Shown here: positions 23,275 to 40,835 of the stretch, in pieces
Numbering within the stretch: the first letter of the stretch is position 1
How the letters are laid out: each line of letters opens with the position of its first letter
DNA from: Gammaproteobacteria bacterium
Lineage (GTDB): Bacteria; Pseudomonadota; Gammaproteobacteria; Magnimaribacterales; D2472
Length of the DNA stretch: 64,000 bases
Reading direction: 5' to 3'
Assembly: GCA_045564015.1 (NCBI GenBank)
Contig: JBJLIB010000011.1
Coordinates: 689-64,688 of the forward strand
The notes under the pieces: generated by a model
Database searches by the model: none
Told to the model about the DNA's origin: nothing
Seen by the model: only the letters and a program-made list of their open reading frames with translations
Program-made: the position numbers and the translations under genes

Positions 23275-23466
23275 TTATCTATGTGAGTCTGTATATGGAA
23301 GTAAAGCCAAAAAGCGAGCAATCTTTATTGCTTTTGTTAATTTCCTCTGTTCCGATGCGCTGATATTTGAAACTCTCGCAGGTATGATTTTCCCTGTCTC
23401 AGTGATGTACCTTTTCAAAAGATCAACATTCTTGTAACTAAAATTTTTGTTATTAGATTCAGTCAT
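23275..23466 (-). CDS. rpsR: 30S ribosomal protein S18 (short, 63 aa)
   Basis: [38 protein letters not shown]. Confidence 0.9.
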
Positions 23467-23906: not shown

Positions 23907-23961
23907 ATTTTTCCTTATGGGTTAGTAGATTTTTTGAACATCAAAAAACCAAGGAGCGTGA

Positions 23962-23990
23962 ATTCTATGCCAAATATTCCTAGCAATCAA
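23962..23990 (-). promoter_or_regulatory. Putative sigma70 promoter of rpsF-rpsR-rplI
   Basis: On the minus strand TTGATT-N17-TAGAAT. The -35 hexamer overlaps the ftsA stop codon, about 55 nt upstream of the rpsF ATG. Confidence 0.45.
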
Positions 23991-25865: not shown

Positions 25866-26745
25866 TGTATGAGAGCCCAATTGACTCAGCGGATTTAGGA
25901 AATAAACTATGAGAAGTCATTCCAGGAGCAGTATTAACTTCGAGCACATAAAAATTATTATTTCTGTCACGCATAAGATCAACCCTTAACCAACCTGAAC
26001 AACCCGTAACATCGACTGTCTTAAGGCAAATTTCTTCAAGCTTATTTTTTTCATCTTTTGAAAGTACAAGCTCGGTAAGTTGAGTATCTTCATTCACGTA
26101 TTTTGCATTGAAGTTATAAAAAGATTCAGAGGTTTTGATCTCTACGGCAGGTAAACATTTTCCGTTTAAAATTGGAACAGTAAGCTCCTTAAAGTCTATG
26201 CTTTCCTCCAGAATGAATGTTCGTCTTGGATCTACGCAACCTAAAATAGCATTCTCTAAATCCTTGTTACAGGTAATTTTGAATACATCTATGCTTGATC
26301 CATCCTCTGCAGGCTTTAAAAAAAGCTCCTTGAATGGTCTAAGTTGATTAAAAAAAGGGTTTCCTAAATCTTTCTCCATTTCATGCAATGATGGAATGGT
26401 AATCCAGTTTGGAGTAGGAATTTTATTATCTTTAAGAAGCACTTTACAAGTATTCTTATTCCAAGTATTTACGCAAGCCTCATAATGGCTGCCAGAAAAT
26501 GGAATGCACTTTTGTTGTAAAAGTTTTTGCAATGCTCCTGATTCACCATCCTGACCATGAAGTGCAATAAAAATGAAGTCTTCTTCTGTAAGTTGATGAG
26601 ATGAAAAGTTTTTTGGATAGTCAATAAGCTGCGCTTCGTATCCTAAATCTTTCACTGCTTGAAATATATATTTTCCACTCTCAAGAGAAACTTCACGCTC
26701 AGAAGATTCACCCCCATACAAAACTTTAATTTTTTTTATTGCCAC
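25831..26745 (-). CDS. ddl: D-alanine--D-alanine ligase
   Basis: YGGESSEREVSLESG and EVNTAPGMTSHSLFP. GTG start. Confidence 0.93.
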   Translation of the reverse strand: MAIKKIKVLYGGESSEREVSLESGKYIFQAVKDLGYEAQLIDYPKNFSSHQLTEEDFIFIALHGQDGESGALQKLLQQKCIPFSGSHYEACVNTWNKNTCKVLLKDNKIPTPNWITIPSLHEMEKDLGNPFFNQLRPFKELFLKPAEDGSSIDVFKITCNKDLENAILGCVDPRRTFILEESIDFKELTVPILNGKCLPAVEIKTSESFYNFNAKYVNEDTQLTELVLSKDEKNKLEEICLKTVDVTGCSGWLRVDLMRDRNNNFYVLEVNTAPGMTSHSLFPKSAESIGLSYNDLVQEIINAK

Positions 26746-28127
26746 TTTTTTTTAATCTTCTTATTCAGTTTTGAAATTGTTCCTGCGCCTTGAGTGATTA
26801 AAATAGAAAAGTCTTGATGATTTTCATGAAGCCAGTTCATAGGATCTTTCTTTCCTATGTAATAAACATTTTTATTTTTTTCTAATATCTCTGAAGCAAG
26901 TTTTTTAGAAGAGATTCCTTTAATAGGTTTTTCACTTGCTGGATATATATCTAACAATAGAAGAAAATCTACCCTAGATAGTACTTTTTTAAAATCATCA
27001 AAAAGCTGTTGTGTTCTTGTAAATCTATGAGGCTCAAAAATCATGCATATCTTTTGCCGAGGAAATTTTTCTTTAGCAGCAAGAACAGTTGATAAAATTT
27101 CAGCAGGATGATGGCCATAATCATCTATCAGCACATGCGGATGCTTGGAAAAATAAATTTCTGAAAGCTCAAACCTTCTTCCAACACCTCTAAAACCAGC
27201 CAACCCTTTAGCAATGTCCTTTACCGATATGTTCTCTTCAATGGCTACACAAATTGCAGCAGTAACATTGTATAAATTATGTCTGCCACTTAAATTAGTG
27301 GAAAATTTATAGTGTTTTTTATTGGCATGATCTATTAATTGAAAATTTTGAAGGCCATGTTCTAACTTTACATCAGTTATTTGAAATCTATTTTTTGAAT
27401 GAAAACCAAAAGTTATCTGTCTTCTATGTATGTCTTTTGAGATTTTACGAATATTTGAATCGTCTAAGTTAAGCAAAATATAGCCATAAAAAGGTAAATT
27501 TTCGGCAAAACTAACAAAAGACTGATTTAATTTTTCTTGATTTAATTCATAGAAACTTAAATGGTCGTTATCAATGTTGGTGATTACAGAAATGTCAGGT
27601 TGAAGATGTAAAAAAGATCCATCGCTTTCGTCTGCCTCAACTATTATATAGTCACCATCGCCAAGGTTAGAACTTCTCCCAACACTCAGAACTTGGCCTC
27701 CCACCACATATGTCGGACTCAAATTAGCTGCATTAAAGATGCTGGCAATGATGCTCGTTGTAGATGTCTTGCCATGACTTCCAGCAATCGCAATACTGCG
27801 ATATGGTTTCATCAGAGTTCCCAGCATCTCTGCCCTTGGAATAATAGTTAAACCAGATTTCTTGGCATATGAAAGCTCAGGATTTTTCTTGGATATTGCT
27901 GACGAAGCAACAACTAAATCTGCTTTTTGAACAAGCCTTGGTTCATGACCTATTTGCACTTTGGCACCAAGTTTTTTTAATTCCTTCAGCTCATCTGTGA
28001 TGACAAGGTCTGAACCTGTAACTTTAAAACCCCTTTTTTGCAAAATAGTGGCCACTCCAATCATTCCCGATCCACCAATTCCAATCATGTGAATTTTTTT
28101 GAACTTTTGAAATCCTAGTGAGTGCAT
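26736..28127 (-). CDS. murC: UDP-N-acetylmuramate--L-alanine ligase
   Basis: IHMIGIGGSGMIGVA and IAGSHGKTSTTS. Confidence 0.95.
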   Translation of the reverse strand: MHSLGFQKFKKIHMIGIGGSGMIGVATILQKRGFKVTGSDLVITDELKELKKLGAKVQIGHEPRLVQKADLVVASSAISKKNPELSYAKKSGLTIIPRAEMLGTLMKPYRSIAIAGSHGKTSTTSIIASIFNAANLSPTYVVGGQVLSVGRSSNLGDGDYIIVEADESDGSFLHLQPDISVITNIDNDHLSFYELNQEKLNQSFVSFAENLPFYGYILLNLDDSNIRKISKDIHRRQITFGFHSKNRFQITDVKLEHGLQNFQLIDHANKKHYKFSTNLSGRHNLYNVTAAICVAIEENISVKDIAKGLAGFRGVGRRFELSEIYFSKHPHVLIDDYGHHPAEILSTVLAAKEKFPRQKICMIFEPHRFTRTQQLFDDFKKVLSRVDFLLLLDIYPASEKPIKGISSKKLASEILEKNKNVYYIGKKDPMNWLHENHQDFSILITQGAGTISKLNKKIKKKWQ

Positions 28128-28136
28128 CTATTTTTT

Positions 28137-29168
28137 TTAAAATTTTAAAATTGAACTTAACATTCTTCTAGCGGCTTGAAAATGATCTAAATTGCTTTCT
28201 TTGTTTGACCATTGTTCATAAAGTTTATTCTTAATTACCTTTTCGAGCTTGCTAGAAAGAGACTCTAAAGATTCTGACTCTTCATGCATCAACCCCATAT
28301 CCAAATCCACAATATTAATTGCATTTAAGAGCTGATGATTATCTATGGCTGATGGCAAAGGAATAATCACTGATCCTCTTTTTAAACTTATAGCCTCTGA
28401 GAGAGAAAGTGCACCTGCCCTGGAAATAATAAAATCTGACCATAAAATTTCCTCATGAGGCGAATTATAGAATTCCTCTACCTCGACAGAAATATTACTT
28501 GAATACAATTCCTTAACTCCTTGAGATTTCCCTTTTCCACATTGATGCTTTACCTCTAATGGTATATTTAATGAATTTAAAGCTTTAGGTATATTCTTAT
28601 TGATAAATTCAGAGCCTTGACTGCCACCGGTCACATAAACCCTGGGTGATTCATGCTGTTGAGTGACTGATGCGCTGTCTTTTGATTGCCTTATTGGATT
28701 GCCTACTAGCATCATCTTTTTTGTGAATGGTTCATTTATTGAAAATCCTAAAAAAATTATTTTTGAGAATTTTTTTAATACATTATTGGAAGTTCCTATG
28801 ATTGCGTTTTGCTCGTGTAAGAAAAGAGGTTTTCTACAAATCCATGCTGATAAACCCACTGGCAATGAGATATACCCTCCGAAGCACACAACATAATCAA
28901 TCTTATTTTTTTGCAAGTAAAAAATACTTTTAAAAATTGATGCGATTAGACCTATTAATGAAATAATTTTTAAAATTAAATTCTTTCCTCTGAAGCCGCT
29001 CATTGGAATTGTTAAAAGTTTTATATTGTGAGGAACAACTCTTTTTTCTATACCAGTTTTTGTTCCAATCCAAATAACCTCATGATTATTTTTAATACAT
29101 TCCTTGCCAAATTCTAATGCCGGAAAAACATGGCCTCCAGTTCCTGCTGCAGAAATTAAAAATTTCAT
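28137..29168 (-). CDS. murG: Lipid II synthase MurG (UDP-GlcNAc transferase)
   Basis: AAGTGGHVFPAL and its position in the dcw cluster. Confidence 0.93.
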   Translation of the reverse strand: MKFLISAAGTGGHVFPALEFGKECIKNNHEVIWIGTKTGIEKRVVPHNIKLLTIPMSGFRGKNLILKIISLIGLIASIFKSIFYLQKNKIDYVVCFGGYISLPVGLSAWICRKPLFLHEQNAIIGTSNNVLKKFSKIIFLGFSINEPFTKKMMLVGNPIRQSKDSASVTQQHESPRVYVTGGSQGSEFINKNIPKALNSLNIPLEVKHQCGKGKSQGVKELYSSNISVEVEEFYNSPHEEILWSDFIISRAGALSLSEAISLKRGSVIIPLPSAIDNHQLLNAINIVDLDMGLMHEESESLESLSSKLEKVIKNKLYEQWSNKESNLDHFQAARRMLSSILKF

Positions 29169-30271
29169 TACTTTATCGTTTTATTTTCAAAATTAATTCT
29201 TAGTACCATGCCCATTAAAAACATAAATAAAATTAAGCTTGTTCCCCCATAGCTTACAAAAGGCAGCGTTAAACCTTTTGTCGGTAATATTCCAAGATTC
29301 ACACCTATGTTAAATACTACTTGAATTGCGATTAAAATACCTGCACCAAAAGCAAGCAATCCTTGAAATAATTTTCCAAGCTCTAGTGCTTTAATGGATG
29401 TTTTGATAATACCAAAAATCATTGCAGCAAAAAGAAATATCACCATCAATCCTCCAATCAGTCCAAATTCTTCAACAATTACTGCAAAAATAAAATCAGT
29501 ATGTGGCTCAGGTAGATATAAATTCTTTTGAAGGCCATTACCCAAACCCACACCTAGCCACTCACCTCTGCCAATACCAAGCAGGGCATTTGATAGCTGC
29601 CATCCGGGCCCGTAAAAATGGTCGAATGGTTCAGTAAATGAAATAAATCTTATATATCTATATGGCTCTAGATAGACAGCAATAGCTGCCAAACCACCCA
29701 TTAATAAAATTAATAGTAAAAATTGAGAAAATGAAATGCCTGCAAAAAATAGCACAGCAATTACTAAAGCTCCAATTACCAATGTTGATCCAAGATCAGG
29801 TTGAGACATAATCAATAGCCCAAAAAGAGCTAATACAATCAAGGGTCTAAAAAATCCTAGTGAAGTATTAATTTCACTTAGTCTTCTAACACAATATCCT
29901 GAAATATATATAACTAAAGCAAGCTTGCTAACTTCAGAGGGTTGGATGTTTATCGGTCCGATTCTGATCCACCTTAAACTTCCATTGACCTCTGTACCCA
30001 CCCCAGGAAAAAAAAGAGCAATAAGTAAAAGCAATGAACCAATTAAAATTAGCCAATCCAATGTGAGAAATAAGTTTGAGGGAATACTTAAGGCAATTAT
30101 TGTTGCAAAAATACCCAGAATCAAAAAAATTACTTGCCTCGAAGCAAAATGAAAGGGAGTGCCATAAAGATCTTCTGAAACGTATACACTTGATGAAGCA
30201 ACCATTACCAATCCAATGAATAACAAACAGAAATATGGAAAGATAATTAATATATTTTCTCGATCAATCAT
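29168..30271 (-). CDS. ftsW: SEDS peptidoglycan polymerase FtsW
   Basis: Polytopic membrane protein with GLTLPFVSYGGTSL. Confidence 0.93.
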   Translation of the reverse strand: MIDRENILIIFPYFCLLFIGLVMVASSSVYVSEDLYGTPFHFASRQVIFLILGIFATIIALSIPSNLFLTLDWLILIGSLLLLIALFFPGVGTEVNGSLRWIRIGPINIQPSEVSKLALVIYISGYCVRRLSEINTSLGFFRPLIVLALFGLLIMSQPDLGSTLVIGALVIAVLFFAGISFSQFLLLILLMGGLAAIAVYLEPYRYIRFISFTEPFDHFYGPGWQLSNALLGIGRGEWLGVGLGNGLQKNLYLPEPHTDFIFAVIVEEFGLIGGLMVIFLFAAMIFGIIKTSIKALELGKLFQGLLAFGAGILIAIQVVFNIGVNLGILPTKGLTLPFVSYGGTSLILFMFLMGMVLRINFENKTIK

Positions 30272-31325
30272 CTGAGCACAATGCTAATTTAATAAAATGA
30301 TCTCCACGTTCCTCAAAATTTTTATAATCTTGACCGCTTGGATGACCCGGTGAAAAAAGTATATTAGTCTGGCAATGATATTCATCTTTAAAAATCTCAT
30401 TCATTACCGATGAAAGACCTTGATTGCGGAACAATATTTTTTCTGGATGAAATACTTTTTTTGATATCTCCTCTGCATGTTTACCAAAAATATATACCTT
30501 TGTTGGACCAATAATTTCATAGTTATCATATTGCTCTTTGCTTGGGTCCCCACAAAGAATCAATACGTAAGGACCAGACATCTTATTAAGCGCAAATTTC
30601 AATGCAGTTAAATTAGTTGCCTTTGAATCATTTATAAATACTAGTTGATTCCGTGTTAAAACATGCTGCCGTCTATGCGGTAATTCTTCCAATTTAACAT
30701 CCTGAACATCACTTAGCTTTTTTCCAGTGATCATTGACCAGAGTTTTTTTGGGTTTGATTCTTCTGTTGATATTCCTGATTCTTTGATTCTATTTTTTAC
30801 ATTTGTATACTCTGCAAAAGTTCCATGATGATCAATATGGTCAGGCGCAATGTTTAATAGCACTCCAAAGTCTAGCTTAATATCCTTGACCTTCTCAAGC
30901 TGAAAACTTGAAAGCTCAATAATAGAATATGAGCAAGAATTTATACCATCTAAAACAGGGGTACCAATATTTCCAATCAATTGAGAATCTTCTAAAAGCT
31001 GATGTAGCTTATAACAGCAAGTACTTTTTCCGTTTGTTCCTGTAACTCCAATTTTAAAAGAACTATCTTCTTGAAAAAAAATATCTAGATCTGTTAGATA
31101 AGGTATTTTTTTAAATTCTCCTTTTTTATATAGCTTCTTTAGATTAATTCCTGGACTCAAATAAATCATTTCATAAGAACCTAATGTAGCTTGATCAGGT
31201 AATTGATTATATATATTTGGCCCTTTTAGATTTTCATCGTAAATGTCAAAAGCTTTGCCTTTTTTTATCAAATATCTTTCAAAAGATTGGCCTGTGATCC
31301 CATAACCAAAAATAAGAGATTTCAT
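30264..31325 (-). CDS. murD: UDP-N-acetylmuramoylalanine--D-glutamate ligase, unusually short (353 aa)
   Basis: GVTGTNGKST, NIAPDHIDHHG, INDSKATN and SPGHPSGQDYKNFEERGDHF are present. The segment between the DH and NDSKATN motifs is much shorter than in E. coli MurD. Confidence 0.85.
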   Translation of the reverse strand: MKSLIFGYGITGQSFERYLIKKGKAFDIYDENLKGPNIYNQLPDQATLGSYEMIYLSPGINLKKLYKKGEFKKIPYLTDLDIFFQEDSSFKIGVTGTNGKSTCCYKLHQLLEDSQLIGNIGTPVLDGINSCSYSIIELSSFQLEKVKDIKLDFGVLLNIAPDHIDHHGTFAEYTNVKNRIKESGISTEESNPKKLWSMITGKKLSDVQDVKLEELPHRRQHVLTRNQLVFINDSKATNLTALKFALNKMSGPYVLILCGDPSKEQYDNYEIIGPTKVYIFGKHAEEISKKVFHPEKILFRNQGLSSVMNEIFKDEYHCQTNILFSPGHPSGQDYKNFEERGDHFIKLALCSDD

Positions 31326-31331
31326 TGAAAT

Positions 31332-32417
31332 TTATCTTAACTTCAGCGTTGCTAGAGCGAATAAAACCAGTACAAAAGTTATAATCCAAAATCTAACGAT
31401 AACTTTTGGCTCTGCCCAACCCTTCAATTCAAAATGATGATGAATTGGTGCCATTAAAAAAACTCTCTTACCCCTTAATTTATATGAGCCTACTTGAATA
31501 ATAACGCTCAAAGTTTCCATCACAAAAACTCCTGCCATAATTGCAAAAACTATCTCATGCCTGACTAACACTGCCAGAGTGCCAAGAATTCCACCGAGTG
31601 TTAAAGATCCCAGATCGCCCATAAATATCTGCGCAGGATATGTGTTATACCAAAGAAACCCTATACCAGCTCCAATTAATGCTCCACAAAAAACAATCAA
31701 CTCACCGCTAAGAGGGTTAAATGGAATAAATAAGTAATTAGAGATAATTAAATTTCCAGATGCGTAAGCAATCAGACCTAGGCCTCCAGCTATCAAGACA
31801 GATGGCAAAATTGCTAACCCATCGAGGCCATCGGTAAGATTAACAGCATTAGATGAGCCCATAATTACAAAAATACTTATAAGCAGGAAAATAAGTGGTG
31901 AAATTATAAAAATATACTCTTTGTTGAAAGGTAAAATAAAAATTTGTTCATTTCCACTAGGAGAAACCTGCAACATAAACAACATAGCAATTAAAGAAAA
32001 AATAAACTGCAACATGAGTTTATATTTTCCCTTCAAGCCTTTTGAATTTTTTTCTTTAATTTTCAACCAATCATCAAGAAAACCTATTGTGCTAAAAGAG
32101 ATAGTGATAAAAATTAGAATCCAAATGTATGGATTCTGAAAATTAGACCAAAGTAATGTTGAGATAATTAGTGAAGAGATAATAATCAAACCTCCCATAG
32201 TAGGTGTTCCAGATTTTGAAAGATGTGATTTGGGTCCATCTCCTCTGATTGATTGTGAGAACTGAATATGTGTTAAGAATCTAATCAAGGCTGGCCCAAG
32301 AAAAATGGAAAGCATGAGCGCAGTCAGAGTTCCTCCGATGGTTCTGACAGTTAAATAACGCAATACATCGAAACCGGAATCGTATGTCATTAACCATGTA
32401 CCTAATAATTCGATCAT
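31332..32417 (-). CDS. mraY: Phospho-N-acetylmuramoyl-pentapeptide transferase
   Basis: TPTMGGL and NAVNLTDGLDGLA. Confidence 0.96.
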   Translation of the reverse strand: MIELLGTWLMTYDSGFDVLRYLTVRTIGGTLTALMLSIFLGPALIRFLTHIQFSQSIRGDGPKSHLSKSGTPTMGGLIIISSLIISTLLWSNFQNPYIWILIFITISFSTIGFLDDWLKIKEKNSKGLKGKYKLMLQFIFSLIAMLFMLQVSPSGNEQIFILPFNKEYIFIISPLIFLLISIFVIMGSSNAVNLTDGLDGLAILPSVLIAGGLGLIAYASGNLIISNYLFIPFNPLSGELIVFCGALIGAGIGFLWYNTYPAQIFMGDLGSLTLGGILGTLAVLVRHEIVFAIMAGVFVMETLSVIIQVGSYKLRGKRVFLMAPIHHHFELKGWAEPKVIVRFWIITFVLVLFALATLKLR

Positions 32418-32418
32418 A

Positions 32419-33765
32419 TTATTTCCATAAATCTAAAACTTCTTCCATCCGCATGGATCTTGAACCTTTTAATAAAATATTCTCTTTTCCTGCTAGATTT
32501 TTTTTTAAGAAATCAATTAACTCTATTTTATTGTTAAAGAAAAACCCATTATCACCAAATGCAAATACTGTATGTCGTATCAAATCTCCATATCCAAGCA
32601 AAATATCTACTCCATGTATTTTGGCATAGTCCCCCAAATCAATGTGTAGTTTTTTTCTGTATCTACCAAGTTCTGCCATATCTCCAAGAATTGCAATCTT
32701 TCTACCTTTAAATTGACATAAAACGTCTATTGCTGCTCTCATGGAATCTGGATTAGCATTGTAAGTATCATCGATGACCTGTGACTGCATTACCCACGTT
32801 TTAAGGTCTAAGCGCTGGGAGGGGTTTTTAAGGCCTCTCAAACCGTCTACAAATTCTTCTATGCTTAACTTAGCAGCATGGATCGCTGCAAATGAAGCAA
32901 GAATGTTTAACACATTATGCATTCCTACAAGCTTTGTTTTTATTGGAACTCTTTTTTTCAAATGGATAGATTTGATAAAAAAAGATAGGCCTTGTTTTGT
33001 CATCCTAATTTGACTTGGGAAGTAAGATGCTGAGGATTTCTCACCAAAAGTATAAAAATTAATATCGTCCCTCATTTTTTTCCAATGATTCAGATATTTA
33101 CCATCCGGAACAATTGCTGCACCATCTTTTTTTATATTGCGGATGAGCTCTGATTTTACCTCTAATACTCCTCTAACTGAGTTCAACCCATCTAAATGTG
33201 AATGACCTATGTGAGTAATAATGCCGATATTTGGCTTAATTATTTTAGATAAAAGATCTATATCCCCTGATTTCGCTGCTCCCATTTCAAAAATTGCTGT
33301 ACTATTTTTTGAATCTAACTCCAAAGCACAAAGCGGCAAACCAATTTCATTATTATAATTCTGAAAAGTTGCATAACTGCTTTTTATGCAGTTCTTTAAA
33401 ATATTTTTTGTGGTTGTTTTACCATTACTGCCAGTAACCCCAATAATGTTTCCCTTGTATCTTCCCATAGCAATCTTAGCAGATTCAATAAGACACTTTT
33501 CAGGACTTTTAACTAGAATAATTTTTGATGGCCGCGCTGAAGAATCTACAATTTTACTCTCTTTTATAATTGCAAGTGATGCACCTTTGTTTAAAGCGTC
33601 CTCGGCATAAAGACTTCCATCCTCATTAGAACCGGTCAAACCAAAAAATACTGAATTCTTTGTTACTTTTCTAGAATCTATTTGAAAATTTCTGATTGGT
33701 AAGTTTGATTTACCATCAAGCTTGAGTGAAGTTAATAAATCTTGTGTATTTTTAATTAATTTCAT
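32419..33765 (-). CDS. murF: UDP-MurNAc-tripeptide--D-alanyl-D-alanine ligase
   Basis: GVTGSNGKTTTK and DDTYNANPDSM. Confidence 0.93.
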   Translation of the reverse strand: MKLIKNTQDLLTSLKLDGKSNLPIRNFQIDSRKVTKNSVFFGLTGSNEDGSLYAEDALNKGASLAIIKESKIVDSSARPSKIILVKSPEKCLIESAKIAMGRYKGNIIGVTGSNGKTTTKNILKNCIKSSYATFQNYNNEIGLPLCALELDSKNSTAIFEMGAAKSGDIDLLSKIIKPNIGIITHIGHSHLDGLNSVRGVLEVKSELIRNIKKDGAAIVPDGKYLNHWKKMRDDINFYTFGEKSSASYFPSQIRMTKQGLSFFIKSIHLKKRVPIKTKLVGMHNVLNILASFAAIHAAKLSIEEFVDGLRGLKNPSQRLDLKTWVMQSQVIDDTYNANPDSMRAAIDVLCQFKGRKIAILGDMAELGRYRKKLHIDLGDYAKIHGVDILLGYGDLIRHTVFAFGDNGFFFNNKIELIDFLKKNLAGKENILLKGSRSMRMEEVLDLWK

Positions 33766-35212
33766 TGTCTAAAATTTCTAAGACGCAATCTCTATCGTTA
33801 AATGGAACTTTATTTCCTGATATTTCCATTGAAGTCTCATGACCCTTACCTAATATTACCAATATATTTTCTTTAGTTAAGTGTCGAAGCGCTGAGGTTA
33901 TCGCCATCTGCCTATCCTCTAAAATTTCAACATTTACTTGATCGTTTTCATTCATTGCATCTGATGCAATTACTGAAAAAGATTCATAGCGATTATTATC
34001 TGATGTAAAAAATATCTTGCTAGAAAACTCTTGAGCCACTTTCATCATTTTTGGTCTTTTTGATTTATCACGATCTCCGCCACAACCAAAAACTAAAATA
34101 ATGTCATCATAATAATCGCCTAATTCAGATAAAATATTTTGCATAGCTTGTTGGTCGTGAGCATAGTCAATTAATATCTTTCCCTCTTTTAATCTTAATA
34201 TCTCTCCTCTTCCCTGAGGCATTTTAATAGCGGCTCTATTTATTTTGTTGAGATTATTTGAATCAACATGCTCCGAAATTAATGCAATAGCTGAAATATA
34301 ATTCTCGATATTAAATTTAAGAAATAATGAGACCGATGCTTCCAGGGCGAGGCTGGGGAAATCCAAATTAATCCTTGATCGTCCCTCAGGGTTATAGACA
34401 AAAGAATACTTAAACAGGGCAGAGGGATTTTTTGCACTTAAAAATTGTGTTTTGGAGAGCTGATCTTTCTGAACTTCAGATAGACGAGGTAGCAAATCTT
34501 GCATTTGATCTATTGAAATTATTGTAGGATTTTGATTATTGAGATTGGCAATAGATAATTTTGCATCAATATAGTTTGTTTCTGTTTTATGGTAATCAAG
34601 ATGATCAGATTGAATATTAAGTATGATGGTCTGTAAAAAGGGTAAATTACATAACCTTTTTTGTACTAAAGCATGAGAAGAGATTTCAAGAAAAACATAT
34701 GTTTTTTGTTCAAGTTTGCATGTTTGCAAAATTTCAAACAACTCAAATATTCCAGGAGTTGTATTGCCTTTGGTTTGCATAGGATCGTCATCAATAATTG
34801 CCCCTAGAGTGCCAATATATACTGAAGGTTTTTGAAGCTCCCTCATAATGTTATGCGCCATAAATGCGGTTGTTGTTTTTCCATTAGTACCGGTGACACC
34901 ATGAAAGATGAAATCATCCTCAGACAATTCATGAAATCTAAATAGGATCTCAACCACCATATCCTCTAAATTATTAATGCAATAAATTGGTATATCTATT
35001 TCTTCGTTGAGTTCTTGGTCGCTAATGATGCAGGATGCTCCTTTTTTTACTGCTTCTTTTATAAATTCTTTTCCATGTGATTCCGCTCCCTGTCGAGCTA
35101 CAAATAAAGAATTTTTATGCACGTCTCTTGAGTTATCAGTTATTGATGCGATAAAACATTGGTCAAACACATTTGTTTTAATCAGGGGTTTAATAAGAGG
35201 TAATTTATTCAT
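33752..35212 (-). CDS. murE: UDP-MurNAc-L-Ala-D-Glu--2,6-diaminopimelate ligase
   Basis: GVTGTNGKTTTA, IDYAHDQQA and GCGGDRDKSKRP. Confidence 0.93.
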   Translation of the reverse strand: MNKLPLIKPLIKTNVFDQCFIASITDNSRDVHKNSLFVARQGAESHGKEFIKEAVKKGASCIISDQELNEEIDIPIYCINNLEDMVVEILFRFHELSEDDFIFHGVTGTNGKTTTAFMAHNIMRELQKPSVYIGTLGAIIDDDPMQTKGNTTPGIFELFEILQTCKLEQKTYVFLEISSHALVQKRLCNLPFLQTIILNIQSDHLDYHKTETNYIDAKLSIANLNNQNPTIISIDQMQDLLPRLSEVQKDQLSKTQFLSAKNPSALFKYSFVYNPEGRSRINLDFPSLALEASVSLFLKFNIENYISAIALISEHVDSNNLNKINRAAIKMPQGRGEILRLKEGKILIDYAHDQQAMQNILSELGDYYDDIILVFGCGGDRDKSKRPKMMKVAQEFSSKIFFTSDNNRYESFSVIASDAMNENDQVNVEILEDRQMAITSALRHLTKENILVILGKGHETSMEISGNKVPFNDRDCVLEILDNEIN

Positions 35213-36809
35213 CTAAATAATTCAAGACATCATCAGAAATAGCTGCAAATAATGGTGCTGCAACGCTACCACCAGAATAATTATTTAATCCTGGCTCATC
35301 AATGGTTACAAAAATTGTAAGTCTCTTAGATTTTAATGGCGCTATTCCTGCAAAGGATGCTATATATTTGCTTTGATCATAACCACCCTTAGAGCTAGTT
35401 TTATGAGATGTGCCTGTTTTTCCTGCAACTTCGTAATTTGATAATCTTGCTAAGTTTCCTGTTCCATCTGAAACAACCAACTTTAAAGACTCTAATACAT
35501 CGTTGGCAGCATCTTTGCTAATTACTCGCTGCTTGTATCCTTCATCATTATCTTTAAAAATTTTAAAATCTTTTAGATAGCCTTCATTAGCAAAAACTGA
35601 ATATGCTTGTGCTAGCTGTAAAGAAGATGCGGTCATGCTGTACCCAAATCCAATACTTGCAATTTCATGATCGGAGATATTATTTCTTGAATTAATAACC
35701 CCATAAGCGACTCCAGGAAAAAATATATTTGGCGGTTTTGAAAGGCCAAACCCTTTGTATCCTGAAATAAGCCCATCTATTCCAACTTGCAAAGCTAACT
35801 TGGAAGCTCCAACCTGGCTCGATTTTGCAATAATCTCACTAACAGTTAGCATTTTGTAATTTTTTGGATCTGATACAGTTCTGCCACTTAAATTTATAAA
35901 TCCTGGACTGGTATCAACTATCTGATTGGTAGAGAGTATACCCATGTCAATGCCCTTGGCTAATGCTAGCGGTTTTATTATTGAGCCCGGCTCAAATGCA
36001 TCAACCAGAGCCCTATTCCTTTGAATCTGTCTCTGAGCGCTATTAGGGTTATATGAGGGATAGCTGGCTATAGCAAGAATTTCTCCAGATATATTGTCTA
36101 AAACTATAGCGCTGCCACCCTTTGCATTATTCGCCTTAACAAAACTTGAAAGGTGTTTATATGCATAAAATTGAACCCTGCTATCAATAGTCAACTTTTT
36201 ATCAAAACCCTGGATGACTTCTTGAGTTACTTTAGGTCTCCTGCTTGCATTTTTGTAAATAATTTCTTGCCCAGCCACACCGGACAATTCAGAATCTAAA
36301 ATATTTTCAAGTCCCTCTAAGCCAAATCCATCTTTGCCAGAAAATCCAACTAAAGTAGCTATTTGTTCCCCTAATGGATAATATCGTTTTTGAAATGATT
36401 CAATCTCGATACCAGATAGCTTCAGATTTGTAATGCTCTCATATTGAGCAAAATTTAAGTTAGAAAATATTAAAGTTTTTTTATTAATTTGTTTAATCGT
36501 ATGAAAATCTTTTTTTAAAATAAGAAAATCTTTTAATTTCTTAAAATCGTCTTCTGAAAAATTCTTTAAAGCATATAAATCATATTGATTGATTGATACA
36601 GCAAGAGGAAAATCATTTCTATCGAGTATACTCCCTCGGTTAGCAGGTATTGACCTAGAGGTCTCGAGCATGCTTTCACCTTTAGATTTTAAGAAGTCTC
36701 CTTCTATGTATTGAAGACTAACTATTCTAAAAACTAAGATTAGTAAACTCAGAAATAAAAAGATATATATTAGATATGCCCGCCAACTATAGCCAAAGTT
36801 ATTTTTCAT
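35205..36809 (-). CDS. ftsI: Division-specific transpeptidase FtsI (PBP3)
   Basis: N-terminal TM anchor, SxxK (GSIIKP) and KTGT (AGKTGTS). Position in the dcw cluster. Confidence 0.92.
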   Translation of the reverse strand: MKNNFGYSWRAYLIYIFLFLSLLILVFRIVSLQYIEGDFLKSKGESMLETSRSIPANRGSILDRNDFPLAVSINQYDLYALKNFSEDDFKKLKDFLILKKDFHTIKQINKKTLIFSNLNFAQYESITNLKLSGIEIESFQKRYYPLGEQIATLVGFSGKDGFGLEGLENILDSELSGVAGQEIIYKNASRRPKVTQEVIQGFDKKLTIDSRVQFYAYKHLSSFVKANNAKGGSAIVLDNISGEILAIASYPSYNPNSAQRQIQRNRALVDAFEPGSIIKPLALAKGIDMGILSTNQIVDTSPGFINLSGRTVSDPKNYKMLTVSEIIAKSSQVGASKLALQVGIDGLISGYKGFGLSKPPNIFFPGVAYGVINSRNNISDHEIASIGFGYSMTASSLQLAQAYSVFANEGYLKDFKIFKDNDEGYKQRVISKDAANDVLESLKLVVSDGTGNLARLSNYEVAGKTGTSHKTSSKGGYDQSKYIASFAGIAPLKSKRLTIFVTIDEPGLNNYSGGSVAAPLFAAISDDVLNYLDE

Positions 36810-37074
36810 AAGTTATATTAATTGCTTTCGTAATCTCCACCATATGTAAAATTTCCTTGGCATGGCGTTCAACTTTAGCTGGAGAACTAAGATGATGGTA
36901 TTCCGTTTTTAAATTGAAATTTATTTCAGTCAATTTATTGTTTGCGACTTGAAGATAAGCATTATTTTCATGTTCTTGACTAAATTGCCATCTAATTTTT
37001 ATAGTCTCCAGACACAGGCAAAATAAAATAAAAATATTGATAAATAAAATATAAACAAAAATATCTTTTTTCAT
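36799..37074 (-). CDS. ftsL: Cell division protein FtsL
   Basis: 91-aa bitopic protein between rsmH and ftsI. Called mainly from position and topology. Confidence 0.65.
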   Translation of the reverse strand: MKKDIFVYILFINIFILFCLCLETIKIRWQFSQEHENNAYLQVANNKLTEINFNLKTEYHHLSSPAKVERHAKEILHMVEITKAINITYEK

Positions 37075-37964
37075 AGCTTTGAAAATACCCTCATTACTGC
37101 GCTTCTTGAACGAGGATTCATTTTGATCTCATGAGTGGATGGTTTTATTTTCTTTTTGATACATCGATAAGTTTCTTTTACTGAAGTATTAATTGGGATA
37201 TCTTTTGGCAGTTGTTCAATTTCAGGTTTAAAAAAATTTTTTACAATTCTATCCTCCAGAGAATGAAATGAAATAATTACAACAACCCCGCCCTCTTCAA
37301 GAATATTATGGAGCTTCGAAAGCGCTATTCTTAAATGATGAAGCTCTTGATTTACATGGATTCTTATTGCTTGAAATGACTTTGTAGCAGGGTGAGTTTT
37401 ACCAGTTCTTTTGAGCACGGTTTCGATTACTCTTGTCAGCTCAATTGTTGTTTGAATAGGTTTCGTTACTCTAAACTCTACTATCGCTCTGGCAATTTTT
37501 CTGGATGCTCTCTCATCGCTGTATTGATATAAGATATCGCTGATCTCTTTTTCAGTCGCGCTATTTAGCCACTCAGCTGCGCTAAAACCGGCAGATGTAT
37601 CCATTCGCATATCCAAAGGGCCATTGCTTTGGAAGCTAAAACCTCTTTTTGGATTATCTAAATGAGTTGAGCAAGTTCCGAGATCCAATAATATCCCATC
37701 AAATTTCTGTCGAGGAAACAATGAATCAATTTCAGAATAATTTGAGTGATAAATGCTAAAACGTGAGTCTGTTATATTTTCTTTTCCAAATGAAACTGCT
37801 TCTGGATCTCTATCAACAGCATGAAGTCTTCCTTGGGGAGATATTCTGTTTAAAAGTTCCTGAGAGTGGCTTCCTCTTCCGAAGGTGAGATCTAAGTATG
37901 TTCCAGATAAATCATGGAGCAAGAAACCTAATGATTCTTCCAGCAGAACTGGAACATGAAGCAT
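37071..37964 (-). CDS. rsmH: 16S rRNA (cytosine1402-N4)-methyltransferase RsmH
   Basis: HVPVLLEE, DLTFGRGSHS and ISFHSLEDRIVK. Confidence 0.95.
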   Translation of the reverse strand: MLHVPVLLEESLGFLLHDLSGTYLDLTFGRGSHSQELLNRISPQGRLHAVDRDPEAVSFGKENITDSRFSIYHSNYSEIDSLFPRQKFDGILLDLGTCSTHLDNPKRGFSFQSNGPLDMRMDTSAGFSAAEWLNSATEKEISDILYQYSDERASRKIARAIVEFRVTKPIQTTIELTRVIETVLKRTGKTHPATKSFQAIRIHVNQELHHLRIALSKLHNILEEGGVVVIISFHSLEDRIVKNFFKPEIEQLPKDIPINTSVKETYRCIKKKIKPSTHEIKMNPRSRSAVMRVFSKL

Positions 37965-37968: not shown

Positions 37969-39096
37969 TTAGTCTACTTGCTTTCTCATGAAGGTTGGCA
38001 CATCAAGGAAATCTATATCCTCTGCAGACGATGTGCCACCTGACTTGACTGATTGATCTATTGGGGGAGTATCTAATCCAACTGGATTAAGTTGCACTGT
38101 AGCTCTTCTTGAATTATCAACTGCTAAAGTTGCTGTTTTTTGATTGACACCTGTTGCCACAACTGTGACTAAAAGTTCTTCTTCATCCATTGAATCTTCC
38201 ATTACGGTTCCATAAATAATCGTTGCATCATCAGCAGTAAAGTCTCTGATTACTGAATCAACCTCATCAAAATCAGCCATTGTGGGCGATTTTGCGGTGA
38301 TATTTACCAAAATCCCTCTAGCATCTTTTAGTTCGATATCTTCTAGTAACTCTGAACTTACAGCTTGATTGGCTGCATCAATTCCTCTCTCATCAGCACT
38401 TGATTGGCCTGTGCCCATCATAGCAATACCTTTTTCTGACATAACTGTTTTTACATCAGCAAAGTCAACATTTATATATCCCGGCTTCATGATAATGTCA
38501 GAAATACCTTGAACAGCTCCTTTTAAAATATCATCTGCCTTAGCGAAGGCTTCTTCCATAGATGTCTTTCTGCCTAATATATCCATTAATTTTTGATTGG
38601 GTATGGTGATCAAGCTATCAACTTCCTCAACTAGCTCTGCTATTCCTTGCTCCGCTGCAGCTTTCCTTTTATGCCCTTCAAAATTAAATGGTTTAGTTAC
38701 TACTGCTACTGTTAATGCTCCGAGTTCCTTGGCAATTTCAGCAATTACTGGGGCAGCACCAGTTCCTGTGCCACCTCCCATTCCTGCAGTGATAAAGATC
38801 ATATCCGCTCCGGATAATAGCTCTTCGATTGCAGCTCTATCTCTTTCTGCTGCTGCCTTTCCTACCTGGGGATCTGCTCCAGCTCCCAAGCCTCTAGTGA
38901 CATTATCACCAAGCTTTAAAATAGTTGAGCCCTTTGCCCTATCTAATGCTTGAGAATCAGTATTTGCGCAAATAAATTCGGCTCCCTGAATTTCATGATT
39001 AATCATATGAATAACTGCATTTCCACCTGCACCACCCACACCAATAACTTTGATCTTGGCTAGTCCTGCGTTTTCTTCAATTATTTCCCAATTCAT
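37969..39096 (-). CDS. ftsZ: Cell division GTPase FtsZ (in a non-canonical position)
   Basis: IKVIGVGGAGGNAV, GGGTGTGAAPV and NFEG. C-terminal conserved peptide DIDFLDVPTFMRKQ. An AGGGG SD lies 8 nt upstream. Confidence 0.98.
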   Translation of the reverse strand: MNWEIIEENAGLAKIKVIGVGGAGGNAVIHMINHEIQGAEFICANTDSQALDRAKGSTILKLGDNVTRGLGAGADPQVGKAAAERDRAAIEELLSGADMIFITAGMGGGTGTGAAPVIAEIAKELGALTVAVVTKPFNFEGHKRKAAAEQGIAELVEEVDSLITIPNQKLMDILGRKTSMEEAFAKADDILKGAVQGISDIIMKPGYINVDFADVKTVMSEKGIAMMGTGQSSADERGIDAANQAVSSELLEDIELKDARGILVNITAKSPTMADFDEVDSVIRDFTADDATIIYGTVMEDSMDEEELLVTVVATGVNQKTATLAVDNSRRATVQLNPVGLDTPPIDQSVKSGGTSSAEDIDFLDVPTFMRKQVD

Positions 39097-39108
39097 TTTC
39101 TTACCCCT

Positions 39109-39601: not shown

Positions 39602-39640
39602 CACACTTTATACTACATTTATCACACTTTTACACACTTT
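39602..39640 (-). promoter_or_regulatory. Putative MraZ operator: phased AAAGTGTG direct repeats
   Basis: On the mraZ strand there are three exact AAAGTGTG boxes (plus-strand CACACTTT at 39602, 39623, 39633) and one degenerate AAATGTAG box (39613). Spacing is 11/10/10 bp, ending 25 nt upstream of the mraZ ATG. Confidence 0.5.
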
Positions 39641-39656
39641 TTTTTAAAAAAATTAG

Positions 39657-39990
39657 ATGAGTTGATCTATAAGCCGGATTCTGTATTAAATGACCATCTA
39701 TCTAGGCAGTATGTCACCATATTGCTCAAGCAACCTACCCGAATCCTAAGCGAGTAACCTAAACGGATTCCTATTTGGTTTTGCTTCAAAGTGGGGTTTA
39801 CATTGCCGTATTTGTTACCAAATACGCGGTAGGCTCTTACCCTGCCATTTCACCCTTACCAATTTCTTGGCGGTATAATTTCTGTTGCACTTGCCGTGGA
39901 CTCACGCCCCCCAGGAATTACCTGGCACTCTACTCTATGAAGTCCGGACTTTCCTCTAACAAATTGCTAGCGGTCATCCGATCAACTCAA
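39657..39990 (-). ncRNA. rnpB: RNase P RNA, bacterial type A
   Basis: The reverse complement contains GAGGAAAGTCCGGAC (P4 5' strand), ACAGAATCCGGCTTA (P4 3' strand) and GGTAAGGGTGAAA. A P1 helix GAGTTGATC/GATCAACTC closes the molecule. It is a GC-rich island in AT-rich DNA and sits between rsmI and mraZ as in Pseudomonas. Ends approximate to within a few nt. Confidence 0.9.
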
Positions 39991-40013: not shown

Positions 40014-40835
40014 CTATTTAGAAATCCTTAAAAGAAATTTATATACTTCTTGTTTTGAGAAAGAAGTAATTTTAGCTATTAGTTTTGAGGCCTCTGTTGG
40101 AGACAAGTAATCTAGAAATGGTAGGCAAAAATTTTCATCTAAATCAAGGCTTTCACTATGAGATAAACCGGAGTAAATAACAATAACAAACTCTCCCAGC
40201 AATGGAATCTCATCGCTCTTAATACGGGCTATCATTTCTTTTATGGTTCCTCTATAGATTGATTCATATTCTTTAGTCATCTCTCGACAAATTGCTACAT
40301 GGGTATCTGGGTTAAGGACCTCAGAAAAAATTGACATAGTTTTGACTATCCTCCTGGCAGATTCAAAAAAAATATTAGTCAAATTAGAATTTTGTAGCTT
40401 TATTGCAATTTTTCTTTTCGCCTCATGCTGCTTTGGTAAAAACCCATAAAAGGAAAATTGATCTGAAGGCAAACCTGAGAGAATTAAGGCATTTATAAGA
40501 GCAGAGGCACCTGGAAGAACCGTAAAAGAAAGATCCTCTTTTATACATTTTTGAATCAATGGATAGCCTGGATCAGATATCAGTGGTGCCCCTGCATCAG
40601 ACAACAAGGCAATAGTCTTACCACTTTTAAGTAATTCTGTGATTACTTTGCTAGCCTCATGCTCGTTATGCTCATGAAATGGTTTGGTTTTTTTTTGAAT
40701 ATCAAAATGCTGCAAAAGTTTTGCCGCAACCCTGGTATCTTCTGCAAAAATATTATCTACTTGCTTTAAAGTATTAATTGACCTCAATGAAAAATCATTT
40801 AAATTACCAATGGGAGTACAAATTATATATAGCAT
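40014..40835 (-). CDS. rsmI: 16S rRNA (cytidine1402-2'-O)-methyltransferase RsmI
   Basis: Tetrapyrrole-methylase fold motifs LYIICTPIGNLNDFSLRSI and SDAGAPLISDPG. Confidence 0.92.
   Translation of the reverse strand: MLYIICTPIGNLNDFSLRSINTLKQVDNIFAEDTRVAAKLLQHFDIQKKTKPFHEHNEHEASKVITELLKSGKTIALLSDAGAPLISDPGYPLIQKCIKEDLSFTVLPGASALINALILSGLPSDQFSFYGFLPKQHEAKRKIAIKLQNSNLTNIFFESARRIVKTMSIFSEVLNPDTHVAICREMTKEYESIYRGTIKEMIARIKSDEIPLLGEFVIVIYSGLSHSESLDLDENFCLPFLDYLSPTEASKLIAKITSFSKQEVYKFLLRISK

What the first reader, a model, noticed from the sequence alone, without database searches (positions are those of the whole stretch)
37969..39096. ftsZ moved from the distal end of the dcw cluster to between mraZ and rsmH
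Seen in the sequence:
- An unmistakable FtsZ (GGGTGTGAAPV, C-terminal DIDFLDVPTFMRKQ) lies 12 nt after mraZ, with its own AGGGG SD, and 4 nt before rsmH.
- ftsA (23987-25216) is the last dcw gene. Its stop codon overlaps the -35 of the rpsF promoter.
- There is no ftsZ or lpxC after ftsA.

Established knowledge: the order mraZ-rsmH-ftsL-ftsI-murE-murF-mraY-murD-ftsW-murG-murC-ddl-ftsQ-ftsA-ftsZ is one of the most conserved in bacteria. In E. coli, internal ftsQ/ftsA promoters help set the FtsZ:FtsA ratio.

Inference: ftsZ is now the second, promoter-proximal cistron, directly under the MraZ-controlled promoter and about 14 kb upstream of ftsA. This could give a high FtsZ:FtsA ratio through operon polarity in a genome with very few promoters.
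Basis: partly seen in the sequence, partly recalled or inferred. Interest (0 to 1): 0.6.

Follow-up and report, generated by a model that had tools for sequence, protein, structure and literature searches.

The report
SAR86 ftsZ moved behind mraZ
In this abundant marine SAR86 bacterium, the only copy of the cell-division gene ftsZ sits second in the cell-wall and division operon, just behind the repressor gene mraZ. The change is real, old and shared by the whole family, but its effect on FtsZ dosage has not been tested.

Summary
On the minus strand the order is rsmI, RNase P RNA, four phased GTG boxes, mraZ, a 12-nt gap, ftsZ, a 4-nt gap, rsmH-ftsL-ftsI-murE-murF-mraY-murD-ftsW-murG-murC-ddl-ftsQ-ftsA, then rpsF.

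- **Not a misassembly.** All 10 genera of the family (f1) and the single-cell genome SCGC AAA076-P13 (SAR86) share this order. Closed relatives carry exactly one ftsZ.
- **The gene is native.** The FtsZ tree agrees with a tree of eight other proteins.
- **The pattern is order-wide.**
  - The sister family f4 has ftsZ-rsmH but has lost mraZ (0 of 30 genomes).
  - The other basal clade (f2 and f3) has mraZ-rsmH-ftsL-ftsQ-ftsA-ftsZ-ftsI.
  - Two independent forward moves are the most parsimonious history.
- **An earlier inversion.** All SAR86 genomes checked also have rnr-rlmB-lpxC-secA. This is the reciprocal junction of dcw|rpsF and records a stem inversion that cut exactly at the distal end of the cluster.
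- **Rarity.** In other Pseudomonadota, 0 of 56 mraZ loci are followed by ftsZ. Published locus tags show that SAR11 HTCC1062 has mraZ-ftsZ too.

This scan has reported the same thing several times on other SAR86 and SAR11 DNA.

The parts
40014..40835 (-). rsmI-like tetrapyrrole-type methylase. It is the conserved upstream flank of the cluster in all four SAR86 families.
   Evidence: Pfam TP_methylase 2.3e-30; synteny
39654..39989 (-). RNase P RNA gene (rnpB), followed by a T-run at 39646-39652
   Evidence: Rfam RF00010, 314.8 bits, E 1.2e-102. It holds the same position in f2, f3 and f4.
39602..39640 (-). Four direct repeats on a 10-10-11 nt spacing: AAAGTGTG (39640-39633), AAAGTGTG (39630-39623), AAATGTAG (39620-39613) and AAAGTGTG (39609-39602). 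This is the candidate MraZ operator and promoter region.
   Evidence: Sequence. Conserved in all f1 genera and in f2/f3, and lost together with mraZ in f4. It matches the published GTG(G/T) box consensus and the four-box AAAGTGT form (PMC12957436).
39109..39576 (-). mraZ (155 aa)
   Evidence: Pfam MraZ 5.4e-21, two stretches
39097..39108 (-). 12-nt mraZ-ftsZ spacer containing the Shine-Dalgarno sequence AGGGG
   Evidence: Across the family the spacer is 10-18 nt and always holds RGGGG.
37969..39096 (-). ftsZ (375 aa), the only copy, at position 2 of the operon
37071..37964 (-). rsmH (mraW), starting 4 nt after the ftsZ stop
   Evidence: Pfam Methyltransf_5 3.1e-98. The spacing across the family is -1 to 4 nt.
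36799..37074 (-). ftsL-like gene (91 aa)
   Evidence: Weak Pfam DivIC hit below the cut-off, plus position
25831..36809 (-). ftsI, murE, murF, mraY, murD, ftsW, murG, murC and ddl in canonical order, with overlaps or gaps of 9 nt or less
   Evidence: Pfam; coordinates
25206..25880 (-). ftsQ-like gene
   Evidence: Pfam FtsQ_DivIB_C 0.0012, just below the cut-off, plus position
23987..25216 (-). ftsA, the last dcw gene
   Evidence: Pfam FtsA 7.5e-46 and SHS2_FTSA 6.3e-32
23907..23990 (-). ftsA-rpsF junction, with a TTGATT-17-TAGAAT promoter-like match whose -35 overlaps the ftsA stop. This is the new junction created by the stem inversion.
   Evidence: reciprocal junction rlmB|lpxC
21418..23906 (-). 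rpsF, rpsR, rplI and dnaB, the conserved downstream flank in all four SAR86 families
   Evidence: Pfam; synteny

Best explanation
**Shown**
- This is the native, single-copy and essential ftsZ of a SAR86-order gammaproteobacterium.
- In the common ancestor of the window's family (f1) and its sister family (f4), ftsZ was cut from the distal end of the dcw cluster (after ftsA) and re-inserted between mraZ and rsmH. It has been inherited vertically since then.

**Inferred from the anatomy**
- ftsZ is now transcribed as the second cistron of one 15.6-kb, 16-gene operon, mraZ to ftsA. No intergenic gap in that stretch exceeds 12 nt.
- The operon starts in the 77-nt spacer after the RNase P RNA gene. 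That spacer holds four helically phased GTG boxes of the kind MraZ binds.
- ftsZ is translated from its own conserved GGGG Shine-Dalgarno sequence.
- ftsZ mRNA is therefore made in fixed proportion to the mRNA of the operon's own repressor, and ahead of all other division genes. MraZ autoregulation would then directly buffer ftsZ transcription.
- Position, natural polarity and the strong ribosome-binding site would set a high FtsZ:FtsA ratio. They would replace the internal ftsQ/ftsA/ftsZ promoters used by E. coli.

**History (inferred)**
- An older inversion in the SAR86 stem had already cut the chromosome exactly between the last dcw gene and lpxC.
- ftsZ was then moved forward twice, in two different ways, in the two basal SAR86 clades.
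For: **Identity**
- Pfam domains and sequence motifs identify the gene as ftsZ.
- It is single-copy: one hit in the window's genome, and one hit in each genome with a hit among 126 of 138 family genomes, including three closed ones. The exception is one spurious 34-aa second hit.

**Distribution**
- The same order occurs in 19 of 19 loci from the same genus.
- It occurs in representatives of all 10 genera.
- It occurs in L032 and in SAG AAA076-P13.

**Vertical descent**
- In the FtsZ tree the order is monophyletic (97/99), f1 is monophyletic (94/96) and f2+f3 group together (98/96).
- This is congruent with a tree of eight proteins that excludes FtsZ: f1+f4 100/99, f2+f3 99/99.
- Identity to other families is similar for FtsZ (47-56%) and FtsA (49-55%).

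**Canonical outgroup state**
- ftsA lies directly upstream of ftsZ in most of 78 outgroup loci, and none of them has mraZ upstream.
- ftsZ-lpxC adjacency occurs in 35 of those 78 loci.
- 54 of 56 mraZ loci from other Pseudomonadota read mraZ-rsmH-ftsI, and none is followed by ftsZ.

**Other SAR86 architectures**
- f2: 29 of 30 loci, and f3: 30 of 30 loci, read ftsA-ftsZ-ftsI.
- ftsL and ftsQ lie between rsmH and ftsA there.
- f4: 25 of 29 loci read rsmI-ftsZ-rsmH, and no genome has MraZ (0 of 30).

**Stem inversion**
- rnr-rlmB-lpxC-secA is found in five closed genomes of f1, f2 and f3, on the opposite strand 150-175 kb from dcw.
- 14 of 28 outgroup rpsF loci have (rnr-)rlmB-rpsF.

**Operon and operator**
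- Gene coordinates show no gap above 12 nt.
- The junctions and the Shine-Dalgarno sequence are conserved.
- The boxes are conserved and co-lost with mraZ.
- The published box consensus matches (PMC12957436).
- Terminator-like sites inside the operon occur at the chance rate, 11 against 10.1 expected.
Against: - There is no transcript, TSS or protein data.
- Promoter-like matches in this AT-rich DNA are at chance level (73 found, 72.7 expected). The actual promoter in the 77-nt spacer is not located. Read-through from rnpB is not excluded.
- f4 keeps ftsZ at the head after losing mraZ and the boxes, so the head position does not depend on MraZ control.
- The parsimony margin for two independent moves is small (2 events against 3).
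- The trees use genes from this one locus, not genome-wide markers.
Confidence: 0.8

Rival explanations
1. The relocation is real but selectively neutral. It would be a by-product of the many rearrangements and deletions that came with genome streamlining, kept only because every gene in the operon is essential. FtsZ dosage would be set by translation and proteolysis as elsewhere, and position would change nothing important.
For: - The same lineage shows other rearrangements at this locus, namely the stem inversion.
- It also shows gene losses, namely mraZ in f4.
- f4 keeps ftsZ at the head without MraZ.
- No expression data exist.
Against: - ftsZ moved forward in both basal SAR86 clades by different routes. 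The same mraZ-ftsZ adjacency exists in SAR11 (PMC2704228 and PMC3870248).
- By contrast, 0 of 56 other Pseudomonadota loci show it.
- After the move, the junctions stayed extremely tight and the Shine-Dalgarno sequence stayed conserved across 10 genera.
Confidence: 0.3
2. There was one forward move in the SAR86 stem. The ancestor already had either the f1-type or the f2/f3-type order, and the other type arose from it by further rearrangements. On this reading there is no convergence within SAR86.
For: All four families share the flanks rsmI-rnpB and rpsF-rpsR-rplI-dnaB, and none has the canonical order.
Against: Converting one derived order into the other needs at least two block transpositions (a breakpoint count on the orders). 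That gives three events in total, against two for independent moves from a canonical ancestor.
Confidence: 0.3
3. A foreign ftsZ was inserted behind mraZ by horizontal transfer, for example from SAR11, which has the same adjacency. The native distal copy was then lost.
For: SAR11 shares the rnpB-mraZ-ftsZ order and the same habitat.
Against: - SAR86 FtsZ sequences form one clade. Its internal branching matches the tree of eight other proteins.
- The nearest outgroup FtsZ sequences are gammaproteobacterial, at 51-53% identity.
- The C-terminal peptide is of the gammaproteobacterial type.
- mraZ and rsmH identities to the other families are in the same range as those of ftsZ.
- No alphaproteobacterial FtsZ was included in the tree.
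Confidence: 0.04
4. Assembly or binning artefact in this MAG.
Against: The identical order appears in dozens of independently assembled genomes, including closed ones and a single-cell genome.
Confidence: 0.01

Closest known systems
Canonical proteobacterial dcw cluster (E. coli/Pseudomonas type: mraZ-rsmH-ftsL-ftsI-murE-murF-mraY-murD-ftsW-murG-murC-ddl-ftsQ-ftsA-ftsZ-lpxC)
   Same: The same 16 genes lie on one strand, tightly packed, with mraZ first and GTG(G/T) boxes upstream. All genes other than ftsZ are in canonical order.
   Different: ftsZ is at position 2 instead of position 16. lpxC is 150-175 kb away, behind rnr-rlmB. rpsF follows ftsA. There is no room for the internal ftsQ/ftsA/ftsZ promoters in front of ftsZ.
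SAR86 families f2 and f3 (the other basal clade of the same order)
   Same: They share the flanks (rsmI-rnpB ... rpsF-rpsR-rplI-dnaB) and the GTG boxes. ftsZ is also in the promoter-proximal third of the operon.
   Different: There the whole ftsQ-ftsA-ftsZ block sits between ftsL and ftsI, so the ftsA-ftsZ pair is kept and ddl is the last gene.
SAR86 family f4 (sister of the window's family)
   Same: ftsZ lies directly upstream of rsmH, and ftsA is last before rpsF.
   Different: mraZ and its boxes are lost (0 of 30 genomes). ftsZ starts 19 nt after the RNase P RNA gene. Its FtsZ is on a very long branch and lacks the canonical C-terminal peptide.
SAR11, 'Candidatus Pelagibacter ubique' HTCC1062
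   Same: The RNase P RNA gene lies directly upstream of mraZ (SAR11_0033), and ftsZ is the next locus tag (SAR11_0032) (PMC2704228, PMC3870248). SAR11 is another streamlined, very abundant marine oligotroph.
   Different: It is an alphaproteobacterium, so the origin is independent. I saw only locus tags, not the sequence, and did not check the rest of its cluster.
Mollicutes minimal operon mraZ-rsmH(mraW)-ftsA-ftsZ with a four-box AAAGTGT operator
   Same: It has a four-box AAAGTG(T/G) operator on a 10-nt period, and ftsZ lies close to mraZ under one promoter (PMC12957436).
   Different: There ftsZ is near mraZ because the genes in between were deleted. The relative order is still canonical and ftsZ is last.

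Membership tests
FtsZ (bacterial tubulin homologue) | Tubulin/FtsZ GTPase domain plus FtsZ C-terminal domain | tested here: met
   PF00091 5.9e-49 and PF12327 5.4e-23, both far above their cut-offs
FtsZ (bacterial tubulin homologue) | GGGTG(T/S)G nucleotide-binding signature and T7 synergy loop (NxDxxD) | tested here: met
   GGGTGTGAAPV and NVDFADV are present in the translation
FtsZ (bacterial tubulin homologue) | Conserved C-terminal peptide that binds FtsA/ZipA | tested here: met
   DIDFLDVPTFMRKQVD is invariant or nearly so in all f1 genera
FtsZ (bacterial tubulin homologue) | GTP-dependent polymerisation and Z-ring formation | not testable with these tools
   Needs biochemistry or imaging
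dcw (division and cell wall) cluster | Full gene set on one strand, tightly linked | tested here: met
   16 genes, 39576-23987, largest gap 12 nt
dcw (division and cell wall) cluster | Canonical gene order with ftsQ-ftsA-ftsZ at the distal end | tested here: not met
   ftsZ lies between mraZ and rsmH, and ftsA is last. The other 15 genes are in canonical order.
MraZ-regulated promoter | MraZ protein with two SpoVT/AbrB-like halves, each carrying the DxKGR DNA-binding motif | tested here: met
   Pfam MraZ gives two stretches. DAKGR and DPKGR are seen in the translation of 39109-39576. Contact residues Lys13, Arg15 and Arg86 are described in PMC12957436.
MraZ-regulated promoter | Three or four GTG(G/T) boxes, 10 nt start to start, upstream of mraZ | tested here: met
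   Four boxes at 39640-39602, conserved across f1, f2 and f3 and lost with mraZ in f4
MraZ-regulated promoter | MraZ binding and repression of the operon | not testable with these tools
   Needs EMSA or a reporter assay
Single polycistronic mraZ-to-ftsA transcript | RNA molecules spanning the mraZ/ftsZ and ftsZ/rsmH junctions | not tested
Only spacing (12 nt and 4 nt), the non-conservation of the one promoter-like match in the mraZ 3' end and chance-level terminator matches speak for it.

The most novel reading that the evidence does not exclude
Streamlined, promoter-poor ocean oligotrophs have repeatedly moved ftsZ to the head of the dcw operon: twice in SAR86 and once in SAR11. On this reading the move is adaptive. 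It ties ftsZ transcription one-to-one to the MraZ autorepressor, or in family f4 to the RNase P RNA gene, as a minimal dosage-control circuit that replaces the internal promoters of larger genomes. Gene position itself would then be the regulator of the FtsZ:FtsA ratio.
Probability: 0.3. Interest if true: 0.7.

Novelty: new variant of a known kind. Interest (0 to 1): 0.5.

Why it matters
The dcw order is one of the most conserved gene orders in bacteria. The distal position of ftsZ, fed by internal promoters, is part of the textbook account of how the FtsZ:FtsA ratio is set.

Here, two of the most abundant bacterial groups in the surface ocean break that rule in the same direction, and SAR86 does so in three different layouts. 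This provides a natural experiment on why the order is normally kept and on what MraZ is for.

There is also a practical consequence for metatranscriptomic growth indices that use ftsZ transcripts (for example PMC13349992). In these clades ftsZ mRNA is part of a different transcription unit than in model bacteria.

The full-text searches I made found no paper that describes the SAR86 arrangement.

Tried and rejected
- **Read and RNA evidence.** Cross-genome conservation was used instead.
- **Internal ftsZ promoter.** The scan gave TTGCCA-16-TATCTT in the mraZ 3' end (39141-39114). It is not conserved at synonymous sites in other genera, and promoter-like hits are at chance level overall. I rejected it as evidence.
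- **Locating the mraZ promoter in the 77-nt spacer.** There is no convincing -35/-10 pair in the window. Some genera have a good TTGCAA-17-TATATT, but it is not alignable in spacing with the window.
- **lpxC in the window's own genome.** It was not found. The genome is 60% complete, so I used closed relatives instead.
- **Relics of an old ftsZ copy.** There is no FtsZ-like tblastn hit in the ftsA-rpsF spacer (80 nt) or elsewhere in the loci.
- **Literature.** Megrian et al. 2022 on dcw evolution (cited from memory) is not held. Searches for SAR86+ftsZ, SAR86+dcw and dcw+gene order+mraZ found nothing on this arrangement.
- **Phylum sample.** It held no genome of SAR11 size, so SAR11 was checked only through published locus tags.
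It was not tested.
I saw only the conserved RGGGG Shine-Dalgarno sequence at the mraZ-ftsZ junction.
Full report
**1. The observation**

The minus strand of the window carries a complete division and cell-wall cluster:

| Gene | Coordinates |
|---|---|
| mraZ | 39109-39576 |
| ftsZ | 37969-39096 |
| rsmH | 37071-37964 |
| ftsL | 36799-37074 |
| ftsI | 35205-36809 |
| murE, murF, mraY, murD, ftsW, murG, murC, ddl | 25831-35212, in that order |
| ftsQ-like | 25206-25880 |
| ftsA | 23987-25216 |
| rpsF, rpsR, rplI, dnaB | 21418-23906 |

The ORF at 37969-39096 is an ordinary, complete FtsZ.
- It matches Pfam Tubulin/FtsZ (5.9e-49) and FtsZ_C (5.4e-23).
- It carries GGGTGTGAAPV, the T7 loop NVDFADV, and the C-terminal FtsA/ZipA-binding peptide DIDFLDVPTFMRKQVD.

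- There are 12 nt (AGGGGTAAGAAA) between mraZ and ftsZ, and 4 nt between ftsZ and rsmH.
- From mraZ to ftsA (15.6 kb, 16 genes) no gap exceeds 12 nt, and most genes overlap.
- The ftsA stop lies inside TTGATT. With a 17-nt spacer and TAGAAT, this makes a good sigma-70-like match in front of rpsF. It is only a consensus match.

**2. Not an artefact, and only one ftsZ**

- The window's genome (0.98 Mb, 15 contigs, 60% complete) has a single FtsZ hit.
- In the family, 126 of 138 genomes have a hit. Each has exactly one, apart from a spurious 34-aa fragment in one genome. This includes the closed genomes G078, G084 and G141.
- The order rsmI, mraZ, ftsZ, rsmH, ftsL, ftsI is found in 19 of 19 loci from the same genus.
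- The full order through ftsA|rpsF-rpsR-rplI-dnaB is found in representatives of all 10 genera of the family.
- Two named public records show it too. One is an uncultured gammaproteobacterial MAG (L032). The other is the single-cell genome 'Gamma proteobacterium SCGC AAA076-P13' (L033, FtsZ 69% identical). From my own knowledge this is a SAR86 single-cell genome, and it identifies the group.
It is not needed to exclude misassembly.

**3. What lies upstream**

- Rfam finds a class-A RNase P RNA gene at 39654-39989 (314.8 bits) between rsmI and mraZ.
- After its 3' end and a T-run, the 77-nt spacer holds four direct repeats: AAAGTGTG, AAAGTGTG, AAATGTAG and AAAGTGTG, at 39640-39602. Their start-to-start spacing is 10, 10 and 11 nt.
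- The boxes are conserved in every genus of the family and, as three or four boxes, in families f2 and f3.
- They match the published MraZ operator: GTG(G/T) boxes six nucleotides apart, and the four-box AAAGTGT-N3 form of Mycoplasma genitalium, for which binding and repression were shown (PMC12957436).
- The window's MraZ has both DxKGR motifs (DAKGR and DPKGR).
- The description 'second cistron behind an MraZ-type operator' is therefore well founded. MraZ binding itself is untested.

**4. Junction anatomy across the family**

- The mraZ-ftsZ spacer is 10-18 nt and always contains RGGGG 5-9 nt before the ATG.
- The ftsZ-rsmH spacing is -1 to 4 nt.
- The one promoter-like match inside the mraZ 3' end of the window varies freely at synonymous sites in other genera.
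- Promoter-like and terminator-like matches in the region are at chance frequency: 73 against 72.7 expected, and 11 against 10.1 expected.
- The simplest reading is one transcript, with ftsZ translated from its own strong ribosome-binding site and rsmH translationally coupled to it. This is inference from spacing, not from RNA.

**5. The wider picture in the order**

The other families of the order do not have the canonical order either.

| Family | Order | Tally |
|---|---|---|
| f1 (the window's family) | rsmI, rnpB, mraZ-ftsZ-rsmH-ftsL-ftsI ... ddl-ftsQ-ftsA, then rpsF | all 10 genera |
| f2 and f3 | rsmI, rnpB, mraZ-rsmH-ftsL-ftsQ-ftsA-ftsZ-ftsI-murE ... ddl, then rpsF-rpsR-rplI-dnaB | f2 29 of 30 loci, f3 30 of 30 loci |
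| f4 | rsmI, rnpB, ftsZ-rsmH-ftsI ... ddl-ftsA, then rpsF | 25 of 29 loci |

- In f2 and f3, ftsL and ftsQ were identified by Pfam.
- In f4 there is no MraZ anywhere in 30 genomes, 7 of them of high quality, and no boxes.
- A maximum-likelihood tree of eight proteins of the locus, without FtsZ and rooted with 19 outgroups, splits the order into (f2+f3), support 99/99, and (f1+f4), support 100/99. The layouts therefore map exactly on the two basal clades.
- The FtsZ tree is congruent: the order is monophyletic at 97/99, f2+f3 at 98/96, and f1 at 94/96. f4 sits on a very long branch and is unresolved.
- FtsZ identities between families (47-56%) resemble those of FtsA (49-55%).
- The gene is thus native and moved. 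It is not a foreign replacement.

**6. Direction and number of events**

Outgroups are canonical.
- Most of 78 diverse FtsZ loci have ftsA directly upstream, and none has mraZ upstream.
- In a separate sample of 56 MraZ loci from other Pseudomonadota, 54 read mraZ-rsmH-ftsI, two were truncated or weak, and none is followed by ftsZ.

Counting events on the gene orders:
- From a canonical ancestor, each SAR86 layout is one block transposition: ftsZ alone in f1+f4, and ftsQ-ftsA-ftsZ in f2+f3.
- Turning one derived layout into the other needs at least two transpositions.
- Two independent forward moves (2 events) are therefore more parsimonious than one stem move followed by reshuffling (3 events). 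The margin is small.

**7. An older inversion at the same spot**

- lpxC, which follows ftsZ in 35 of 78 outgroup loci, lies 150-175 kb away in closed SAR86 genomes of f1, f2 and f3. It is on the opposite strand, in the order rnr-rlmB-lpxC-secA.
- In 14 of 28 other gammaproteobacterial genomes sampled, (rnr-)rlmB lies directly upstream of rpsF.
- The two SAR86 junctions, dcw|rpsF and rlmB|lpxC, are thus the reciprocal products of a single inversion with breakpoints at (last dcw gene|lpxC) and (rlmB|rpsF).
- Both basal clades share both junctions, so the inversion predates their split.
- The distal end of the cluster, where ftsZ normally sits, was therefore already disturbed in the SAR86 stem before ftsZ moved forward. 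Whether this favoured the later moves is speculation.

**8. Convergence outside SAR86**

- Earlier notes of this scan said that SAR11 has the same order. I checked this in print.
- In 'Ca. Pelagibacter ubique' HTCC1062, the RNase P RNA gene lies between SAR11_0034 and SAR11_0033 (mraZ, minus strand) (PMC2704228). SAR11_0032 is ftsZ (PMC3870248).
- rnpB-mraZ-ftsZ therefore also exists in an alphaproteobacterial oligotroph. It has been visible in a public genome for years without comment in the papers I could search.
- The main comparative dcw paper (Megrian et al. 2022, cited from memory) is not held, so I cannot exclude that it lists these cases.

**9. Mechanism**

*Shown:*
- position, tight packing and a conserved Shine-Dalgarno sequence;
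- a conserved operator;
- a single gene copy;
- vertical descent.

*Inferred:*
- ftsZ is co-transcribed with mraZ and the rest of the operon;
- MraZ autoregulation therefore acts directly on ftsZ mRNA;
- being second of 16 cistrons, with a strong ribosome-binding site, gives FtsZ an excess over FtsA. FtsA is last, and its start overlaps ftsQ by 11 nt.

The caveat is f4. It shows that the head position survives without MraZ, so MraZ control cannot be the whole reason. A neutral origin remains a serious rival.

**10. Verdict**

- This is a real, ancient, clade-wide variant of a known system, not a new kind of system.
- It is ordinary for this clade but unusual for bacteria.
- This scan has already reported it several times on other SAR86 and SAR11 DNA.
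  - the reciprocal-junction evidence for the stem inversion;
  - the complete per-family tallies;
  - the rooted mapping of layouts on the two basal clades;
  - the co-loss of mraZ and its boxes in f4;
  - the 0-of-56 baseline;

Noticed in passing
L128 16611-16959; L129 16628-16975 (family f4): In the sister family f4, the RNase P RNA gene ends 19 nt before the ftsZ start codon. There is no T-run, no GTG boxes and no mraZ (0 of 30 genomes). ftsZ may be made as the 3' trailer of the rnpB transcript, or from a promoter inside rnpB.
   Followed up: partly
L134 2459-3560; L136 (family f4): f4 FtsZ sits on a very long branch (about 3.5 substitutions per site). It lacks the canonical C-terminal FtsA/ZipA-binding peptide and ends ...NIFGRLKN or ...SEVLGRLKN, although ftsA is retained.
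   Followed up: partly
L141-L145 (closed SAR86 genomes G078, G084, G033, G141, G025): The order rnr-rlmB-lpxC-secA is the reciprocal junction of dcw|rpsF. It points to one inversion of about 150-175 kb in the SAR86 stem, with a breakpoint exactly at the distal end of the dcw cluster.
   Followed up: yes
window 30264-31325; L116, L121: MurD is short (341-357 aa) in the window, in most genera of the family and in f4. In the two genera closest to the window's genus (g14, g18) it is 414-442 aa and only 28-30% identical. This suggests either a replacement or repeated shortening.
   Followed up: no
window 39654-39989: The RNase P RNA gene lies directly upstream of mraZ in all four SAR86 families, and, according to PMC2704228, also in SAR11 HTCC1062.
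   Followed up: partly
L118, L120, L131, L033 (upstream of mraZ): In several genera a good TTGCAA-17-TATATT promoter match overlaps boxes 3 and 4. Its -10 ends only 6 nt before the mraZ ATG, which would make mraZ leaderless. The window itself has no match at that spacing.
   Followed up: no
window 23962-23990: A TTGATT-17-TAGAAT promoter-like site for rpsF has its -35 overlapping the ftsA stop codon.
   Followed up: partly
G207:C3:50327-51273 (f4); G070:C1:598633-599742 (f1): The ftsZ matches carry in-frame stops: four in G207 and one TGA in G070. These may be sequencing errors or pseudogenes in those MAGs.
   Followed up: no
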